Shown here one piece after another: positions 36,802-63,290 of a stretch of DNA of 64,000 nucleotides. The translations under genes and the position numbers were made by a program. Source of the DNA: Pseudomonadota bacterium. Its GTDB lineage: Bacteria; Desulfobacterota; Desulfobacteria; Desulfobacterales; RPRI01. The notes under the pieces were generated by a model. The model was not told where the DNA came from and searched no databases. It saw only the letters and a list, made by a program, of their open reading frames with translations. The first letter of the stretch is position 1; each line of letters begins with the position of its first letter. The DNA lies in assembly GCA_043825875.1 (NCBI GenBank), contig JBDRRF010000079.1, positions 96,001 through 160,000 on the forward strand. The letters run 5' to 3'.

Positions 36802-38103
36802 CTATAAACCCTTTCTTAAATTATTAATAAATTCTGATTCATTATCGGGAAGATTTGAACCCTTATAAATGATACTGCCCCTTCCATTAATACCGACTAT
36901 ATATGGCAAGCCTTTTACTCCAAATGTTTTGCTTGCAACTGTTCCCTCGGTATCCAGTAGTATTGTATAATTTATGTTTTGTGATCTCTTAAATCGTTGC
37001 ACAACTTCTGCAGGTTGTCCATAGTTAATCCCTAAAACAACAATATCCTGTTTTTGCGCCTTTTCGGCAAATTTTTTAATTACAGGCACTTCTTCCATAC
37101 AGTAAACACACCATGTTGCAAAAAAAACAATCACAACCCCTTTCTTGCCTTTTAACCGGCTTAAAGTAATTTTATCTCCTTTAAGTGAATTAAGGCTAAA
37201 GTCAAGAGCCGAATTTTCTAAGGATATTTCATTAATATTTTGCAACAGTTTCTCATTATTTGTTTCAGTAGTAGTGATTATTTTTTCGTTTGAATTATCA
37301 ATCCCGGCATCTATCGGTACTGGAAATTCTGCTTTTGAAAAAAACTGGATAAGATTTGGGAAATCCGTATTTTGGCCAATGAATACCAGAAACAGGCTTG
37401 CTGAAATAATAATTATAAAAGCAAAACCTTTTTTTATAGTTTCCATCCAGCGACCTGCTTTGGGCAGTTTTGAAATGAACCCGGTCATTACTCCTGCCAG
37501 AATAATTATGGTTCCCTGACCAAATCCAAACAAAAAAAGTTGAACTCCACTTTTTAAAACATGCAGAGTATAATCCACTCCTTGAGCTTTTTTGAGTGTA
37601 ATTGCGATCGCTCCCAAAGCAACAGCCAGAATAGGCCCAGTGCAAGGTCCGATAATCAAACCGCTAATGCAACCTACTATAAAAGCGCCCAATACGCCCT
37701 TAAGATTGGCCGATTTAAACTGTAGTCTTGAAATAAATTGGGGATTAGGAATATTAACCACATCCAACATAAAAAGGCTCATCATTATAAAAAAAATTGC
37801 GATTGAATACATAAGCAATCCATTTCCAAGGATAGAACCGTATGTACCTCCTATCACCGAAATGGTCACGCCAAATATAGAATATACAAAAGCCAAGCCT
37901 GTTACCATGGAAAGGCTTAGAATAAAGGCACGCATTCGGTTATCGCTTGCCTGGTTGCCAATATATCCGATCGTCAAGGGAAGAGCAGGATAAACGCATG
38001 GGGTAAAAGATGATAGAATACCACCTCCAAACATCAGGAAATAAATCATTATACTATCCTGACGAAAAGCTTCTTGTATGAAATGATGGATATACTCTAT
38101 CAT
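36802..38103 (-). CDS. CcdA/DsbD-beta plus TlpA-like thioredoxin fusion
   Basis: SSFTPCVYP and GPCTGP (CcdA cysteines); C-terminal FFATWCVYC. Confidence 0.9.
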   Translation of the reverse strand: MIEYIHHFIQEAFRQDSIMIYFLMFGGGILSSFTPCVYPALPLTIGYIGNQASDNRMRAFILSLSMVTGLAFVYSIFGVTISVIGGTYGSILGNGLLMYSIAIFFIMMSLFMLDVVNIPNPQFISRLQFKSANLKGVLGAFIVGCISGLIIGPCTGPILAVALGAIAITLKKAQGVDYTLHVLKSGVQLFLFGFGQGTIIILAGVMTGFISKLPKAGRWMETIKKGFAFIIIISASLFLVFIGQNTDFPNLIQFFSKAEFPVPIDAGIDNSNEKIITTTETNNEKLLQNINEISLENSALDFSLNSLKGDKITLSRLKGKKGVVIVFFATWCVYCMEEVPVIKKFAEKAQKQDIVVLGINYGQPAEVVQRFKRSQNINYTILLDTEGTVASKTFGVKGLPYIVGINGRGSIIYKGSNLPDNESEFINNLRKGL

Positions 38104-38158
38104 TTTATATCACCGGATTTGTTTTTTGATGTTTCAGGTTTATAAAATTATATTTATT

Positions 38159-38301
38159 GAGCCACTTTCAAGACGTTTCAGTTTGGTCAAGCTCAAGGCG
38201 GGAGAAAATTTCAACCACAGGAATACATTTAGTATTTCGAGGATTGAAATTTGAGCCCAACGCTTAAGATCGGCCAAAATGGGGCGTTTTGAAACTGGCT
38301 C
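38159..38301 (+). mobile_element. MITE family B, copy 4
   Basis: Perfect TSD TATT at 38155-38158 and 38302-38305; overlaps the peroxiredoxin stop codon. Confidence 0.95.
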
Positions 38302-38936
38302 TATTGCTTATTTACTTCTTCAAGAGCTTTGGCAAGATCTTCTAAAAACGGTCGCTTGTTTATATCATGAACATCTATATATGTTATAATTCCTTTTTTG
38401 TTGATTACGAACAAGGCTCTTTCGCTTACACCTTCTGATCGAAGTACACCATATTTGGCAGCTACCGCTCCATGAGGATAAAAATCGGAAAGAACAGGAA
38501 ACCAGATTTTTTCATTTGGATTAGTCATCTGTTTTGTCCAGGAATATAGTGTTGGGATATTGTCTACTGTTATACCGAGCAGGATGGCATCGTTTTTTTC
38601 AAACAGCTCTTTTGATATGTTATAACCTGGCCACTGATCAGAGCAAACCGGTGTCCATGCCGCAGGCACAAATGATATAACAACGTTATATTTTCCTGCA
38701 TACCGGCTAAGAGTTATTTTATCGTCGGATACTGATGGGAGAGTAAAATCGGGGGCATGATCTCCGACTTTCAAATTTATGACAGAATCTGTTGATTTGA
38801 GTTTTCCCACCGGATAAATTGATTCTGAAAATTTTTCCGATTGCCCATAAGCCATAGTCATTCCCGTTACTATCATAAAAATGATAAGGCATAATAAATA
38901 TTTATATTTATTGATCTGTTGGTTCATTTCCATCAC
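38301..38936 (-). CDS. Exported peroxiredoxin (AhpE-like)
   Basis: PAAWTPVC (PxxxTxxC), LSDFYPHG, SERALF; signal peptide. Confidence 0.9.
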   Translation of the reverse strand: MMEMNQQINKYKYLLCLIIFMIVTGMTMAYGQSEKFSESIYPVGKLKSTDSVINLKVGDHAPDFTLPSVSDDKITLSRYAGKYNVVISFVPAAWTPVCSDQWPGYNISKELFEKNDAILLGITVDNIPTLYSWTKQMTNPNEKIWFPVLSDFYPHGAVAAKYGVLRSEGVSERALFVINKKGIITYIDVHDINKRPFLEDLAKALEEVNKQ

Positions 38937-39546
38937 CCGATCCTATTTTTGAAAACTTTATAATTTCATCCAAAAATTTTTGACTATCCTCAAAACCTCC
39001 TTCTTTAAAATAAAATTGCTCGTTAGGTCCGTTTTTATTTAATTTAATCCCTATAAAGGTAGGAGTGGCTTTTGCGTGCAGCAAATTAAATATTTGCGTA
39101 CTTTTGTCGGAAAACAGAGGAAAAGGTACTTTATATTTTTCTTTGAAAGAATTTATCTCATAATTACTATTGGCCACACCTATACCTATTATTTTTATTT
39201 CTTCTTTTAAGGCGGTTTGTTGTTCAATCTTCTTATAAACCTCGTTTACCTTAGATGCCGCCCTCTGGCAATGCGGACAATAAAAACTGAAAAATTCTAT
39301 AATCAAAACCTTGGCTTTAATTTGTCCGATATTAAAATCCATGTTGTCAGAAAGGCCCAAATATTTTTTTTCTGCTTTACTCGAAGGTGCAGGAAGCTGG
39401 AATTCAGGGAAGCTATTGCTGTTAAGATGGGAGTCCTCGGAATTGGGAATAGGTTCAGCACCTTTCGCCAATTGCATATTATATTCAAAAAACAATCCCA
39501 ATAATAAACACAGTACAATATATTTCCATGATTTATTTTTTTTCAT
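38908..39546 (-). CDS. Exported TlpA-like thiol-disulfide oxidoreductase
   Basis: FSFYCPHC, VPFPLFSD, ATPTF; signal peptide. Confidence 0.88.
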   Translation of the reverse strand: MKKNKSWKYIVLCLLLGLFFEYNMQLAKGAEPIPNSEDSHLNSNSFPEFQLPAPSSKAEKKYLGLSDNMDFNIGQIKAKVLIIEFFSFYCPHCQRAASKVNEVYKKIEQQTALKEEIKIIGIGVANSNYEINSFKEKYKVPFPLFSDKSTQIFNLLHAKATPTFIGIKLNKNGPNEQFYFKEGGFEDSQKFLDEIIKFSKIGSGDGNEPTDQ

Positions 39547-58673: not shown

Positions 58674-58985
58674 TGAACAGCGTGCAGACTTCCGGCCGGT
58701 GTCTCATTGCGAGAGAGCTTGGAGAACCTTTGTAGATGAGAAAGCAAAAGACAGCCATTAGAGCCGGTGCGCTCATCGACTTTGCCTTGAAATGGAAATC
58801 CATAAACTGGAAATATGCAATGAGTCAGGTCAGAAGGCTGCAAGTACCTATCGCAAAGGCTGTTAAGGAAAGCAGGTGGAATAAAACTAAATCACTACAA
58901 TATCTGTTAACCCGCTCTCTCTACGCCAAGTTACTGGCTGTGAAGCGAGTGACCTCCAACAAGGGGAAAAAGACTCCCGGCTACC
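58674..58985 (+). mobile_element. Group II intron fragment (RT N-terminal RVT_N region only)
   Basis: WKSINW...VRRLQ..IAKA....RW....LQ.LL..S..AKLLAVKRVTSNKGKKTPG, then an abrupt end; no YADD core. Confidence 0.85.
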
Positions 58986-58996
58986 AGGTGAATCTC

Positions 58997-59737
58997 ATGA
59001 ATCTTACAAGAACATTGATACTATTGTGCGCAATCAGTCTGCTAACTGCTTGCGCAACACGTGCTCCCCAAAAAACTCAATGGATTGAAGAAGCATTACT
59101 GCATGATGGTCGTATTATTCATGTAACTAGAGCAATAAAAACAGGTCTGAATTTTGCCATAATTAGATTACCCGACACAAACGGTGTGCCAAAATTTTAT
59201 TCCGTCGAAACACAGAACCCAAATACAGGTGAAGCTGTTTCGTGGGACAGTGAAGACAGTGAAGCACGTCCAATATTCATAGATTTTGATGGAACAATAA
59301 CATATTTAGTCGTTTATGTACCTGGGTTTGACAATACAGAGAAAAAATACGGATGTATTTTTCCACCGTATCTTTTTTTACGACATGACCGAGGTAATAA
59401 GTGGGTTAGAGTTAATCCAAAAGAGGCACCAGAATTCATCAAATATGCTAATTTGTCGTTTGCGTTAATGAAATATCAAATAACTTTAATGCCTAATATG
59501 GAAATTATGCAAGAGGATGAGCGTGAAAGAATTTTAAAAGTACCGGAAGAAAAAAGAGCTGGTTATCAAACAGTTGCAAAAATCAGGCATGAAAACTTGG
59601 AGAAAGAAAGAGAAGGGTACCTTTTTCAGATTGATATTCCACGTAGCATTTCGGATCTGAAGACAAAAAGAAAAATTTTCAGCGGAAATCGAAGATTTAT
59701 GCCTAATAGATGCAAGCAATTTCCTGATGATATGTAG
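58997..59737 (+). CDS. Hypothetical lipoprotein
   Basis: AGGTGA RBS; MNLTRTLILLCAISLLTAC lipobox; WIEEALLHDGRIIHVTR motif. Confidence 0.75.
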   Translation: MNLTRTLILLCAISLLTACATRAPQKTQWIEEALLHDGRIIHVTRAIKTGLNFAIIRLPDTNGVPKFYSVETQNPNTGEAVSWDSEDSEARPIFIDFDGTITYLVVYVPGFDNTEKKYGCIFPPYLFLRHDRGNKWVRVNPKEAPEFIKYANLSFALMKYQITLMPNMEIMQEDERERILKVPEEKRAGYQTVAKIRHENLEKEREGYLFQIDIPRSISDLKTKRKIFSGNRRFMPNRCKQFPDDM

Positions 59738-59882: not shown

Positions 59883-60175
59883 AAATTATGGAAATATTCA
59901 TACCAATCTTATTTGGCATTTGTGGCACTGTAATATGGAAATTATGGGAATGGCCAGGATTGATATCGCTATTTGCAATAATGACAGGGGAAAATTTATG
60001 GAAAGTATTTATCTATTAAACTTGCTGGAAATTATTTAAGCTCACAGCTTTATACCTCAGAATTTAGAAAAATTGTGTTAAGTTAATTAAACATTCACCG
60101 CTGCAAACAACGGGGAATATTCACGTACTTTTTCCGTAGATATAATTTAACCCATGATCAGGAGGTTTTGTCTTT

Positions 60176-61270
60176 ATGAAATGCTTTGTGTATTTGTCCA
60201 GAAAGCTATGTTTAGCTGTTGTGTTTTGTTTCGGGTTGAACTTGTCAGCCGGATTGGCGGCTGAGCAAGGAACAGGTGAAGGGGTTCCCAGCGAAGTGTC
60301 AATAAGCACGAATAATTCTCCAAAGATCCTGTTCGAGGAATTATTTTTTGATTTTGGAAAGGTTTCCCAAAATACGCTGCTTGAACATATATTTGTATTT
60401 AAGAATATCGGCACCGGAGTTTTGCACATTTATAATGTGAAAGCGGGCTGAGCCTGTACAGCAGGCCTGGTCTCTGCCAGAGAGATTCCCCCGGGAGGGG
60501 AAGGAAAAATAAAGCTTAACTTTAAAACAAGCAACAAGTCAGGTAAAAGGACCCAGACGGTTAGAGTCGCCACGGATGATCCTGAAAATGCAAGCATCCA
60601 GCTTAAGATAAGTGCAGAAGTCGAGATAAGGCTGGAGGTAAAACCGGACAGGATAAATTTCGGCCGGATAAAGAAAGGGACAGAACCTTCAGCCCAATAT
60701 ATATCACTTAATGGAGAGGACAAAAATACTACCGAAATCCTCTCTGTATCTTCCAGCAACAAAGATATAAAAGCAGAAATAACTCTTTCCGATCCCGCAG
60801 GCAGGCGTCAAATCCAGCGTGTTAAAGTTTCTGTACTGTCCGGTATAAAAGTCGGTAGATTCAGAGATAACATCACACTTAAAACCAATCATGAAAAAAT
60901 GGATGTTCTAAGCGTATATGTATATGGAGAAGTTATCGGTAATATATCTGTAATTCCGAATTATATCTCCTTTGGCATGTTCAAAAGGGAGGAGAAATAT
61001 GAAAGATCCATAAGACTGAAGTCTGCTCCGAATACGACTTTCAATATCCTGGATGTAAAAACTACGCCCTATGTTAAGGCCGAAGTGTCGACCATTAAGG
61101 AGGGTGAGGAATATATGGTTCAGGTTTCAATGGATGAAAATTTTAAGGGTGATTTTTTGAGGGGAAAAGTACTTATAATCACTGACGAACCGGATCAGGC
61201 CGAGATTGAGGTTAATATTTTCGGGAGGGTTTTTTCACAGCAACCCATAGATATGCAAAAAACTAAGTAG
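60176..61270 (+). CDS. DUF1573-like exported Ig-fold protein, probable selenoprotein (364 aa if the TGA is read through)
   Basis: Single in-frame TGA at 60449-60451 in VKAG-U-ACT, where the family has CxCT; frame stays open to TAG at 61270. Confidence 0.8.
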
Positions 61271-61413
61271 TGTCCGTCCATAAACGGCATCTTGTGACAC
61301 ATATCTGCGTTCTCGCGTTTTTGAAATACTCGACGTAAGCCCATTACGCCTGCGTTTTCAAAAACGCTGCGGCCGTGATCTGAGCCGCAATCTACCATTT
61401 CTGGACGGACACT
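61269..61413 (-). mobile_element. MITE family A, copy 3
   Basis: Perfect TIRs AGTGTCCGTCCA / TGGACGGACACT; TSD AAGT at 61265-61268 and 61414-61417. Confidence 0.93.
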
Positions 61414-61541
61414 AAGTAAATTTTTTCCGGAGCGTTTTACAGACGCAGATCGGATAGATTGCAGACGGTAAATATCGTAATTGAAATATCAGAGCACTTT
61501 GCGCCAAGACATTTATGCCTGGCGCAAAGTGAGCAGATTAT

Positions 61542-63290
61542 TTATCGACGGTTACTCGGTTTTCCCCAGGAGAAGTGCTGCCGTGTTTCCCTGCATTTCC
61601 AATTCGATGCATCGTTTACGTCTCCACCGCGGAATACTGCTTTGCTGGGATAGGGACAAAGTAAAAATGTTCGCGGCGGCGCTGTGGGGGCCGAATTTGT
61701 GATCAGCTCCTTGGGCGGCTTACCCTGCTCCACCCAGCGAACTATGGCCGCTATAGCCTGTTCAGGAGTATCTTGCGGGCCAGGTCCGCCAGCGCAATGG
61801 AACACGCCTGGTGCGATAAAAAGACGGGCAAAAGACTGAGTGTGTCCGAAACCGTGTTGAGATTGTGCCAGGTCTTGATAGTACCGGATCATGTTGAATG
61901 CCGAGATTCCGTTGTCGCTCACGCCATGCCAGAAAATGATCTTGCCGCCGGCTCTTCTGAAAGAGTCCAGACGTGTAGGATCTGCAGTTCCTGAGCCAGG
62001 AAAAACTGCCTCAAAGGTTTCGAACCAATTTGTTACGTCCGTTTTACTGGTAAAATCGAATGTCGTCCAATCGTAGTCCAGACCAAACAGCCCGCGTGAG
62101 TAAGTGTCAAACATGCCTAATCCGGCTGGGTTATAGGGATTGCCCGGTGTCCAATATTCGGGAGACTGCAATCCGATAAAGAATGGTGACCAGCCGCTTG
62201 GGTTTGAGAGGGTGTATCCCAGGTAACTGTATCCGAATAAATCCACACCTTTCAGTATGAGTTTAAGGGTATCGATCTGGGGCGGAGTGAAGAGTGGATG
62301 TGGATGTGAATGTGGAGGTTCTAAGGGCCATGGAGCGTCGACCATTATGCTTGCCCAATCCTCAAAATCTAATTCTATTACCGAAGGATCCCAGATAAGA
62401 CCGTCTATGGCCCCATCGGCTCCGTCATATTCATCCACAAGTATCTGCTCGAACGCTAACAACTGATTATAAGAGATCCATCTATCAGGCACGTCACGAA
62501 TATAAGCGGCGATCATGCCGAAGAAGAAGGGGTTCCCTGCGTTGATTCCGGGTGCGCTGGAAACGACCCCGTCAAAATCTTCAGGATACTCGATGGCAGC
62601 TACATTACCCATGCGACCGCCGCCTGAGCACCCTTCGATATACCGGTACAGGTCACGCTTTTTCGTTCCAAGACCGTAATAGGCCCGGGTGATGTGCTGT
62701 GTGGCGACTGCGGTAACATGGACGCCACGCTTGGCATAGTCCAGTGCCTGGGTCCGATCAACGGCGAAAGTCCAGTCGAGCATGGATTCCATCGTGTTTT
62801 CACCATGGTGACCATCATCAGTGCCGGCGACCGCAAAGCCTTCATCCAACCGAATGTCCGGCGGATCAGGAACGTATCCCGCCGCCCCACCCAAACCGAC
62901 GAAGAAGTACCGGTTTTTGAAATTATCCGGCAAGGCAACCATAAACTTGACCCCGTCATCGGGGTATACGCCATCCGGGTATTCCGGTGTAGCAAGATCG
63001 GGATTCGTAAATCCCTCTGTGTCAATCCAACCGTCGACACGACAGTAATTAGACCCTTCAGGTGTCGACAATGATACTGCGGTTTCAATGATTACGTTGC
63101 TTCCGGGCGGCATTACTGATTGGATATCCGCAACATTACATCCAAGAACATGTGTGGGCGGTCTTGGACAATTTTTCTTCGATGCCTTTCCGATTCCTTT
63201 GGCCAGTACAGAATCCGCAGACCAAAAAATGAATGCCAACAAAAGAAACCATCTGAAACACTTCAAAATGCTTATTTTATTTCCCATCAT
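61542..63290 (-). CDS. Tannase/feruloyl esterase family alpha/beta hydrolase, exported
   Basis: Signal peptide; GCSGGGR nucleophile motif, YPEDFDGV, WHGVSD, PGVFHCAGGPGP, LCPYP. Confidence 0.92.
   Translation of the reverse strand: MMGNKISILKCFRWFLLLAFIFWSADSVLAKGIGKASKKNCPRPPTHVLGCNVADIQSVMPPGSNVIIETAVSLSTPEGSNYCRVDGWIDTEGFTNPDLATPEYPDGVYPDDGVKFMVALPDNFKNRYFFVGLGGAAGYVPDPPDIRLDEGFAVAGTDDGHHGENTMESMLDWTFAVDRTQALDYAKRGVHVTAVATQHITRAYYGLGTKKRDLYRYIEGCSGGGRMGNVAAIEYPEDFDGVVSSAPGINAGNPFFFGMIAAYIRDVPDRWISYNQLLAFEQILVDEYDGADGAIDGLIWDPSVIELDFEDWASIMVDAPWPLEPPHSHPHPLFTPPQIDTLKLILKGVDLFGYSYLGYTLSNPSGWSPFFIGLQSPEYWTPGNPYNPAGLGMFDTYSRGLFGLDYDWTTFDFTSKTDVTNWFETFEAVFPGSGTADPTRLDSFRRAGGKIIFWHGVSDNGISAFNMIRYYQDLAQSQHGFGHTQSFARLFIAPGVFHCAGGPGPQDTPEQAIAAIVRWVEQGKPPKELITNSAPTAPPRTFLLCPYPSKAVFRGGDVNDASNWKCRETRQHFSWGKPSNRR

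What the first reader, a model, noticed from the sequence alone, without database searches (positions are those of the whole stretch)
60176..61270. Hidden selenoprotein candidate: UxC motif in an exported DUF1573-like Ig-fold protein
The ORF track shows two pieces (60176-60451 and 60899-61270), but they are one frame interrupted only by TGA at 60449-60451. The context FDFGKV...HIFVFKNIG...LHIYNVKAG-[TGA]-ACT...IPPGGEGKI...V.TDDP matches DUF1573, which normally has CxCT there, so the TGA replaces a conserved Cys. GC-rich hairpin-forming sequence follows immediately (GCCTG-TACAG-CAGGC; TCTCT-GCC-AGAGA), as expected for a bacterial SECIS. Inference: Sec in a signal-peptide-bearing, non-thioredoxin fold implies a redox or metal-binding function for this domain of unknown function.
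Basis: partly seen in the sequence, partly recalled or inferred. Interest (0 to 1): 0.75.

Follow-up and report, generated by a model that had tools for sequence, protein, structure and literature searches.

The report
Known selenoprotein family, two-hairpin recoding signal
The stop codon inside this gene sits where relatives carry either the same stop or a cysteine, in a bacterium with the full selenium machinery, so it very likely encodes selenocysteine in a predicted exported, likely redox-active protein of an already catalogued family, whose recoding signal is predicted to be an unusual pair of RNA hairpins.

Summary
Confirmed: 60176-61270 is one 364-codon frame with a single in-frame TGA (codon 92, U-A-C-T). 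It is not a new family. It passes NCBIfam NF041425 'OS_HP2 (seleno)protein' (101.5 bits, cut-off 100), predicted in 2007 and listed as the DUF1573 selenoprotein. The genome has selA, selB, selD and tRNA-Sec. At this column 69 of 132 homologous genes have TGA and 63 have Cys codons; none has TAA or TAG. Related contigs from two other studies also keep the TGA. The model has three PapD/ASH-like Ig domains, and UxC is the only S/Se pair in the mature chain. Best guess: an exported thiol-disulfide exchange site, CsgC-like (untested). The conserved signal is two tandem hairpins (66 of 69 Sec genes, 16 expected; 11 of 63 Cys genes, 10 expected). The proximal loop lacks the consensus G. The GG loop lies 38-41 nt from UGA, beyond the 16-37 nt consensus, and subtracting the first hairpin gives about 19 nt. 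The scan noted this two-hairpin signal before on other DNA (e1-8273730).

The parts
60160..60165 (+). Shine-Dalgarno-like AGGAGG, 10 nt before the ATG
   Evidence: sequence
60176..61270 (+). Full gene, 364 codons with one in-frame TGA; OS_HP2/DUF1573 (seleno)protein, three-domain form
60176..60259 (+). Predicted cleavable signal peptide (basic N-region, hydrophobic core from residue 11, cleavage inferred after AGLA, about residue 28)
   Evidence: hydropathy peak 2.9 at residue 11; heuristic, no SignalP run
60320..60628 (+). Ig-like domain 1 (DUF1573 / NF041425, about residues 49-151) carrying the UxC loop
60449..60457 (+). TGA-GCC-TGT = U92-A93-C94, the only Sec/Cys pair of the mature chain
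60465..60482 (+). Proximal hairpin H1 in the family-conserved register (loop 60472-60475 CUCU, no G); only 5 of 7 pairs form in this copy
60469..60487 (+).
60486..60502 (+). Distal hairpin H2 (UUCCCC-CGGGA-GGGGAA) with the GG loop about 41 nt after UGA; candidate SelB-binding loop (inferred)
60629..61240 (+). Ig-like domains 2 and 3 (about residues 152-355), no cysteines
61257..61425 (.). MITE-like repeat with 49-nt imperfect inverted ends; its left arm contains the gene's TAG stop (61268-61270)
   Evidence: 9 genome hits of 120 nt or more, this copy included

Best explanation
The TGA at 60449 is very likely read as selenocysteine, giving a predicted exported protein of three Ig-like domains whose Sec-Ala-Cys loop likely works as a thiol-disulfide exchange site on envelope proteins. 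Shown: one frame with one TGA; TGA/Cys exchange at this column; the Sec machinery in the genome; membership of the catalogued OS_HP2/DUF1573 family; a tandem hairpin pair conserved specifically in TGA genes. Inferred, with my odds: (1) SelB/tRNA-Sec insert Sec (about 0.96). (2) The signal peptide takes the protein to the periplasm (about 0.9). (3) U92 and C94 cycle between selenolate/thiol and a selenenyl-sulfide, acting as an isomerase-like or electron-relay site in the manner of CsgC or nDsbD; domains 2-3 would act as a spacer or client-binding scaffold, and TlpA/DsbD- or MauE-type partners would recharge the site (about 0.55). (4) The distal GG-loop hairpin would bind SelB, with the proximal hairpin folding away about 20 nt so that the loop sits at the normal distance (about 0.55).
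For: Sec machinery: selA 602.8 bits, selB 378.3 bits and selD 381.4 bits (selD itself has a TGA), all over cut-off; a 98-nt tRNA-Sec(UCA) with G before CCA. Conservation: 69 TGA, 54 TGC and 9 TGT among 132 distinct genes, no TAA or TAG. The 72%-identical same-genus orthologue has TGA, and a paralogue on C80 has TGA. Co-occurrence: 100 of 108 homologue-bearing genomes have selA. The 5 with neither selA nor selB over cut-off carry only Cys forms (6 of 6 genes), and both selA-negative genomes with a TGA form have selB. Databases start 8 of 15 hits just after the motif. Fold: mean pLDDT 95, all-beta, with UxC in a loop between strands of domain 1; best matches are VesB Ig (Z 12.3, rmsd 2.0 over 97 residues) and HYDIN PapD-like (Z 11.0). 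The fold exists without the Cys pair (2QSV), so the pair is not needed for folding (inference). Fusions: 20 of the 150 best representatives fuse the three-Ig CxC module to a TlpA-like thioredoxin domain, and all 20 keep CxC. A rhodanese-MauE pair lies within 800 nt, co-oriented, in 3 of 120 loci. Precedent: CsgC is an Ig fold with a CxC at -139 mV and is related to nDsbD (PMC3173608 passages). MauE has an essential CGC active site (bioRxiv 10.64898/2026.03.05.709764, parts 1-2 of 4). SECIS.
Against: No experiment on any family member was found; Table 1 of PMC13188914 lists it under 'Predicted with high confidence'. No TlpA- or DsbD-like gene lies within about 5 kb in any of 120 loci from this phylum (small home-made HMMs), and the three MauE cases come from only two families. 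The TlpA fusions are 30-45% identical to each other and may be one event; only 9 of 20 keep a full CxxC in the fused domain. CsgC and nDsbD are not among the top 50 structural rows, so the analogy rests on motif and general fold only. This copy's H1 is weak (-5.9 kcal/mol; 35% of synonymous shuffles as good), and its motif is UAC rather than the listed UGC. The NF041425 score is only 1.5 bits over cut-off. On 8 phylogenetically independent pairs the distal hairpin alone is not significant (median p 0.125; 0.06).
Confidence: 0.55

Rival explanations
1. Sec is inserted, but UxC is a soft-metal site (Cu, Hg, Zn) and the protein is a periplasmic metal chaperone or buffer.
For: A CxC/UxC pair on an exposed loop can bind soft metals (established chemistry, recalled). 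Earlier scan notes place a related Cys-Sec (CU) branch in copper gene clusters (e1-1112333, e1-6596766; unchecked AI notes). A CU form also occurs in family f48 here.
Against: No copper oxidase, copper ATPase or mercury-resistance family appeared in Pfam scans of 110 of 221 ORFs around 20 three-domain loci or of 45 of 113 nearest ORFs around 20 further loci; one HlyD/CusB-type membrane-fusion gene lies divergent to the C80 paralogue. No His or Met is among the invariant columns near the motif. The recurring fusion partner is a thioredoxin fold.
Confidence: 0.2
2. Sec is inserted, but the protein is a non-catalytic Ig scaffold, chaperone or adhesin-like envelope protein whose Se-S bond is structural or regulatory.
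For: The closest folds are ASH/PapD-like scaffolds, pilus chaperones and protease appendages. 73 of the 150 best representatives lack CxC, mostly giant repeat proteins. The gene has no conserved operon.
Against: A vicinal UxC does not bridge strands. Sec and Cys exchange at least 8-10 times on the tree, which fits selection on reactivity (inference). 75 of 82 representatives of up to 1100 aa keep CxC.
Confidence: 0.2
3. This copy is poorly recoded or decaying: TGA mostly terminates, because the conserved hairpin has eroded here.
For: H1 is the weakest among the three-domain Sec genes scored, and an alternative hairpin competes with it. A MITE-like element touches the 3' end. No RNA run is available to show expression.
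Against: The 272 codons after TGA are open and 72% identical to the orthologue. Both H1 and H2 still form when +9 to +58 is scored (true/true), and the alternative hairpin itself meets the published numeric consensus (G first in the loop, 24 nt spacing, -10.6 kcal/mol).
Confidence: 0.03
4. UGA is read as cysteine (tRNA-ReC/SelC* type) or by an alternative genetic code rather than as Sec.
For: tRNA-ReC-like tRNAs were reported in 2 of 6 Desulfobacterota genomes with UXXU hydrogenases (PMC13582414 passage).
Against: ARAGORN finds one UCA tRNA, of Sec type with G at the discriminator, and one ordinary 75-nt tRNA-Cys. Only one selB is over cut-off. TGA is used as a normal stop in same-genus paralogues.
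Confidence: 0.02

Closest known systems
OS_HP2 / 'DUF1573 domain-containing' selenoprotein (Pfam PF07610; NCBIfam NF041425; Zhang & Gladyshev 2007 PMC1976440; motif UxC in PMC2398784, UGC in PMC9312934 and PMC13188914)
   Same: Same domain, same Sec position (first residue of CxC), score over the NCBIfam cut-off, and a host whose nearest named relatives are deltaproteobacterial (Desulfobacterium-type labels).
   Different: Three Ig domains (about 360 aa), whereas the best-scoring members here, such as the C80 paralogue, have two (about 235 aa). Motif is UAC, not UGC. The tandem-hairpin SECIS is not described in the passages I read.
E. coli CsgC and nDsbD (redox-active Ig folds; PMC3173608)
   Same: Periplasmic Ig sandwich with an exposed Cys pair (CxC in CsgC).
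   Different: Not among the top 50 structural rows. The CsgC CxC is described at the BC loop/strand C, and I could not test whether the positions are equivalent. No curli or dsb genes lie nearby. Sec replaces the first Cys.
Bacterial SECIS consensus (bSECISearch model, as summarised in PMC13188914 Fig. 2A legend)
   Same: Stem-loops downstream of UGA within the coding region; a short loop with G-G or G-U at its start (H2).
   Different: The hairpin whose loop lies at 14-26 nt has G in the first two loop positions in only 5 of 69 Sec genes. The G-loop hairpin lies 38-41 nt away, beyond the 16-37 nt window.
ASH/PapD-like Ig domains (VesB Ig, HYDIN, CEP192, P. gingivalis 2QSV)
   Same: Fold of domain 1 (Z 11-12, rmsd about 2 A over about 100 residues); PF22544 match.
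   Different: 2QSV has no CxC at this position; a shared fold shows no function.

Membership tests
OS_HP2/DUF1573 selenoprotein (NF041425) | NCBIfam NF041425 score at or above the curated cut-off of 100 bits | tested here: met
   101.5 bits with U given as C. This is marginal: 9 of 17 three-domain homologues pass, range 89-137 bits.
OS_HP2/DUF1573 selenoprotein (NF041425) | Pfam PF07610 domain | tested here: met
   97.5 bits against a cut-off of 26.1, residues 53-149
OS_HP2/DUF1573 selenoprotein (NF041425) | Sec at the first position of a UxC motif aligned to Cys in homologues | tested here: met
   UAC here (UxC as in PMC2398784; the reviews write UGC). TGA in 69 and Cys codons in 63 of 132 genes.
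Bacterial selenoprotein gene | Host encodes SelA, SelB, SelD and tRNA-Sec | tested here: met
Bacterial selenoprotein gene | Se actually incorporated at the UGA | not testable with these tools
   needs 75Se labelling or MS
Consensus bacterial SECIS (bSECISearch model) | Conserved hairpin with its loop 16-37 nt after UGA and G in the first two loop positions | tested here: not met
   The family-conserved proximal hairpin has that G in 5 of 69 Sec genes (12 of 69 by an exhaustive window scan, against 9 of 63 Cys genes). The conserved G-loop lies at 38-41 nt. This copy alone has a non-conserved hairpin meeting the numbers. bSECISearch itself was not run.
CsgC/nDsbD-type redox Ig proteins | Structural homology to CsgC/nDsbD with equivalent cysteine placement | tested here: inconclusive
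   not among the 50 rows shown; absence from that list does not exclude it
CsgC/nDsbD-type redox Ig proteins | Measured redox potential or thiol-disulfide exchange activity | not testable with these tools
   needs purified protein
Exported (Sec-pathway) protein | Cleavable N-terminal signal peptide | tested here: inconclusive
   basic N-region, hydrophobic core and AxA-type site by inspection and hydropathy; no predictor was available

The most novel reading that the evidence does not exclude
DUF1573 selenoprotein genes across this phylum use an undescribed class of bacterial SECIS. A sequence-variable 'spacer' hairpin folds away about 20 nt so that a distal GG-loop hairpin, 38-41 nt from UGA and written by the Pro-Pro-Gly-Gly codons, reaches SelB at the normal distance of about 19 nt. 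The product is a selenium version of a periplasmic Ig-fold disulfide isomerase or relay working with TlpA/MauE-type partners.
Probability: 0.4. Interest if true: 0.62.

Novelty: new variant of a known kind. Interest (0 to 1): 0.38.

Why it matters
The protein is a new member of a family predicted as a selenoprotein since 2007, so the gene call alone is ordinary, although databases still split these genes at the TGA. Two points go further. First, reviews state that some bacterial SECIS elements fail the consensus and that distinct classes must exist (PMC13188914 and PMC12013277 passages). This family supplies a concrete, covarying example with a built-in Cys control, and it makes a simple prediction: distance to the SelB loop is measured through folded RNA, not in nucleotides. 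That would matter for selenoprotein gene finders and for designing SECIS elements that spare the protein sequence next to Sec. Second, the TlpA fusions and the CsgC precedent give DUF1573, a very large family of unknown function, a testable role in envelope thiol chemistry of anaerobes.

Tried and rejected
Sequencing error: rejected. Operon-based function: no conserved neighbours beyond local synteny (HAD hydrolase in 14 of 120 loci). TlpA/DsbD adjacency: 0 of 120 loci. Complex prediction of domain 1 with the TlpA-like domain of a natural Cys fusion protein: no answer, score 0.00; this is not evidence either way. Word-index search for longer fused forms: none, a weak negative that the profile search overturned. 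Single-sequence PDB search: nothing under E 0.2; the profile found 2QSV. Rfam: only two weak matches far below gathering score. Promoter and terminator scan: chance level. No RNA holder listed, so expression is untested. The pattern search of genome contigs found one distant Cys homologue. ESM Atlas look-alikes were not obtained. Literature searches for a description of a tandem-hairpin bacterial SECIS and for DUF1573/PF07610 function listed none. The library lacks most subscription journals, including the 2005 bSECISearch paper, and I read no supplements, which may list SECIS structures for OS_HP2.

Full report
OBSERVATION. Positions 60176-61270 form one reading frame of 364 codons with a single internal stop, TGA at 60449-60451 (codon 92), in NVKAG-*-ACTAG. 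An AGGAGG lies 10 nt before the ATG. The TGA is not an assembly error. A contig of run X1 matches 59900-61325 without a difference (possibly the source). Related contigs from runs X2, X3 and X4 (two other studies) cover the codon with changes on both sides of it and none in it. Long open flanks around a stop are common (37 TGA, 109 TAA and 35 TAG cases in the genome), so the argument rests on homology.

WHAT THE PROTEIN IS. Read through, residues 53-149 match Pfam DUF1573 (E 4.8e-28). The protein scores 101.5 bits on NCBIfam NF041425 'OS_HP2 family (seleno)protein', cut-off 100; 9 of 17 three-domain homologues tested also pass. OS_HP2 was predicted in Olavius symbionts in 2007 (PMC1976440, passages and Table 2) and given pfam07610 and motif UxC in 2008 (PMC2398784, table passage). 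It is listed as 'DUF1573 domain-containing protein, UGC' in two reviews (PMC9312934 passages; PMC13188914 section 7 part 1, under 'Predicted with high confidence'). The AlphaFold model of residues 48-355 (44-row alignment, pLDDT 95.1, pTM 0.79) is all-beta with three Ig domains. U92/C94 sit in a loop between two strands of domain 1. Domain 1 matches ASH/PapD-like folds: VesB Ig Z 12.3, rmsd 2.0 over 97 residues; HYDIN Z 11.0; 2QSV Z 12.1. Apart from three Cys in the predicted signal peptide, U92 and C94 are the only S/Se side chains of the Cys type. The signal peptide is judged by inspection and hydropathy only. The nearest named database proteins are labelled Proteobacteria MAG or Desulfobacterium sp., so the host is probably a Desulfobacterota member (inference). 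Eight of 15 database hits begin just after the motif, i.e. they are mis-split genes.

IS TGA SEC? The genome (99.8% complete) has selA, selB and selD over cut-off, selD with its own TGA, and a 98-nt tRNA-Sec with G before the CCA end. A two-domain paralogue on C80 has TGA at the same place. In the phylum, 109 of 301 genomes match. I collected 132 distinct genes with the motif: 69 TGA, 54 TGC, 9 TGT, no TAA or TAG. Domain hits without a [C/stop]xC motif were dropped first: 8, two of them a Cys-TGA variant, plus two loci that did not align at the motif. selA is present in 100 of 108 homologue-bearing genomes. Of the 8 without it, three have selB over cut-off, and these include both genomes with a TGA form. 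The five with neither gene over cut-off carry only Cys forms, 6 of 6 genes; one of the five has a partial selB hit at a contig end, and these are draft genomes. On a 68-row tree Sec and Cys exchange about 10 times (at least 8 forced by supported branches). The window protein sits with its 72%-identical TGA orthologue inside a supported 13-row clade of 10 Sec and 3 Cys forms. I put Sec at about 0.96.

THE RECODING SIGNAL. The region 60449-60510 folds no better than shuffles (z -1.5). A different pair is conserved: H1 (window 60465-60482) and H2 (60486-60502). They pair in 91.9% of cells with 20 double changes (0 of 500 shuffles; slid controls 46-62%), against 41.5% in 15 Cys genes, the level of their slid controls. 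These alignments used 18 of 28 three-domain Sec genes and 15 of 17 Cys genes, those with this copy's codon spacing. The structure was derived from the Sec set, which favours it, but RNAalifold gives the same two hairpins. In 22 Sec genes that are one codon shorter, only the base of H2 keeps a shared register, although each gene has its own proximal hairpin. Over all genes, a proximal hairpin plus a distal G-G/G-U loop occurs in 66 of 69 Sec genes (16.1 expected from synonymous shuffles) and 11 of 63 Cys genes (10.0 expected). It occurs in 23 of 24 Sec genes not seen when the windows were chosen (6.5 expected). Among genes with P-[P/A]-G it occurs in 59 of 61 Sec against 6 of 33 Cys. Kin are not independent: 8 independent pairs give median p 0.03 for both hairpins, 0.016 for H1 alone, but only 0.06-0.125 for H2 alone.

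The published consensus needs G in the first two loop positions and 16-37 nt between UGA and loop (PMC13188914 passage). The proximal loop has that G in 5 of 69 genes, and the distal G lies 38-41 nt away. Subtracting the span of H1 gives a median of 19 nt (10-90%: 15.5-23.5). Eight of 9 other putative host selenoprotein genes, picked and labelled by recalled motifs, show a G-loop at 18-27 nt. Hence the inference that H2 binds SelB and H1 is a spacer; the alternative is that H1 is a SECIS without the G. This copy is atypical. I reached this reading. One search then showed an earlier scan note with the same idea on another genome (e1-8273730), which is not independent evidence. Searches listed no paper describing it. 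PMC12013277 (passages) only states that atypical SECIS elements exist.

HOW IT LIKELY WORKS. Neighbourhoods say little. Pfam scans of 110 of 221 and 45 of 113 flanking ORFs showed local synteny only. In 120 loci, a rhodanese-MauE pair lay within 800 nt in 3 (two families), a HAD gene in 14, and TlpA or DsbD in none. Fusions say more. Of the 150 best profile hits (79,515 hits at E up to 0.001), 20 join the three-Ig module to a TlpA-like thioredoxin domain, all keeping CxC. Among the 44 hits scanned with Pfam, 3 carry a C39 peptidase and 1 an N-terminal thioredoxin. The TlpA fusions may be one event, and only 9 of 20 have a full CxxC, 17 the first Cys. Precedent for CxC redox chemistry outside the thioredoxin fold: CsgC, an Ig fold with CxC at -139 mV, related to nDsbD (PMC3173608 passages), and the essential CGC of MauE from a Thermodesulfobacteriota species (bioRxiv 10.64898/2026.03.05.709764, parts 1-2 of 4). 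The host has 2 MauE and 8 redoxin-family matches. I therefore favour a periplasmic thiol-disulfide exchange site on an Ig scaffold (0.55) over a metal site (0.2) or a non-catalytic scaffold (0.2). None of this is shown.

VERDICT. The added value is the non-consensus tandem-hairpin signal and a redox lead from fusions. Interest 0.38; a new variant of a known kind on account of the SECIS, a new member on account of the protein. Other papers consulted: PMC13582414, PMC8318568, PMC13326102, PMC10434189 and bioRxiv 10.1101/2022.07.06.499078 (passages only). No supplements were read, and they may hold SECIS drawings or member lists for OS_HP2.

Noticed in passing
window 61257-61425: MITE-like repeat with 49-nt imperfect inverted ends; 9 genome hits of 120 nt or more, this copy included. 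Its left arm supplies the gene's TAG stop and last few codons.
   Followed up: partly
window 58736-59737 (+): Chimeric 333-codon ORF: an RVT_N fragment (residues 20-84; likely a group II intron remnant) in frame with a lipoprotein-like sequence that has its own Met and lipobox-like Cys.
   Followed up: no
window 36805-39546 (-): Three-gene thiol-redox cluster about 21 kb upstream: a DsbD/CcdA transmembrane-TlpA fusion and two AhpC/TSA-redoxin genes. Candidate partners, but not linked to the gene.
   Followed up: partly
G000:C80 7742 (L008/L103): Two-domain paralogue (233 aa, TD-U-GCT) followed by a HAD hydrolase gene. This is the form that scores highest on NF041425, and it has a strong two-hairpin signal.
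   Followed up: yes
L082, L122, L190 (family f48): DUF1573 variant with Cys-TGA adjacent (KPC-U-G) instead of UxC, like the Cys-Sec branch in earlier scan notes.
   Followed up: partly
L110, L160, L182: Rhodanese and MauE genes co-oriented within 800 nt of a TGA-type DUF1573 gene in two families.
   Followed up: partly
P0155 and 19 relatives (alignment A4): 820-907 aa proteins: three-Ig CxC module, TlpA-like domain (CxxC in 9 of 20), then a second Ig module without CxC.
   Followed up: partly
P0104, P0145, P0156: C39 peptidase domain fused N-terminal to the three-Ig CxC module.
   Followed up: no
window 61542-63290 (-): Tannase/feruloyl esterase gene converging on the selenoprotein gene; the same arrangement is seen at the same-genus orthologue L079.
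   Followed up: partly
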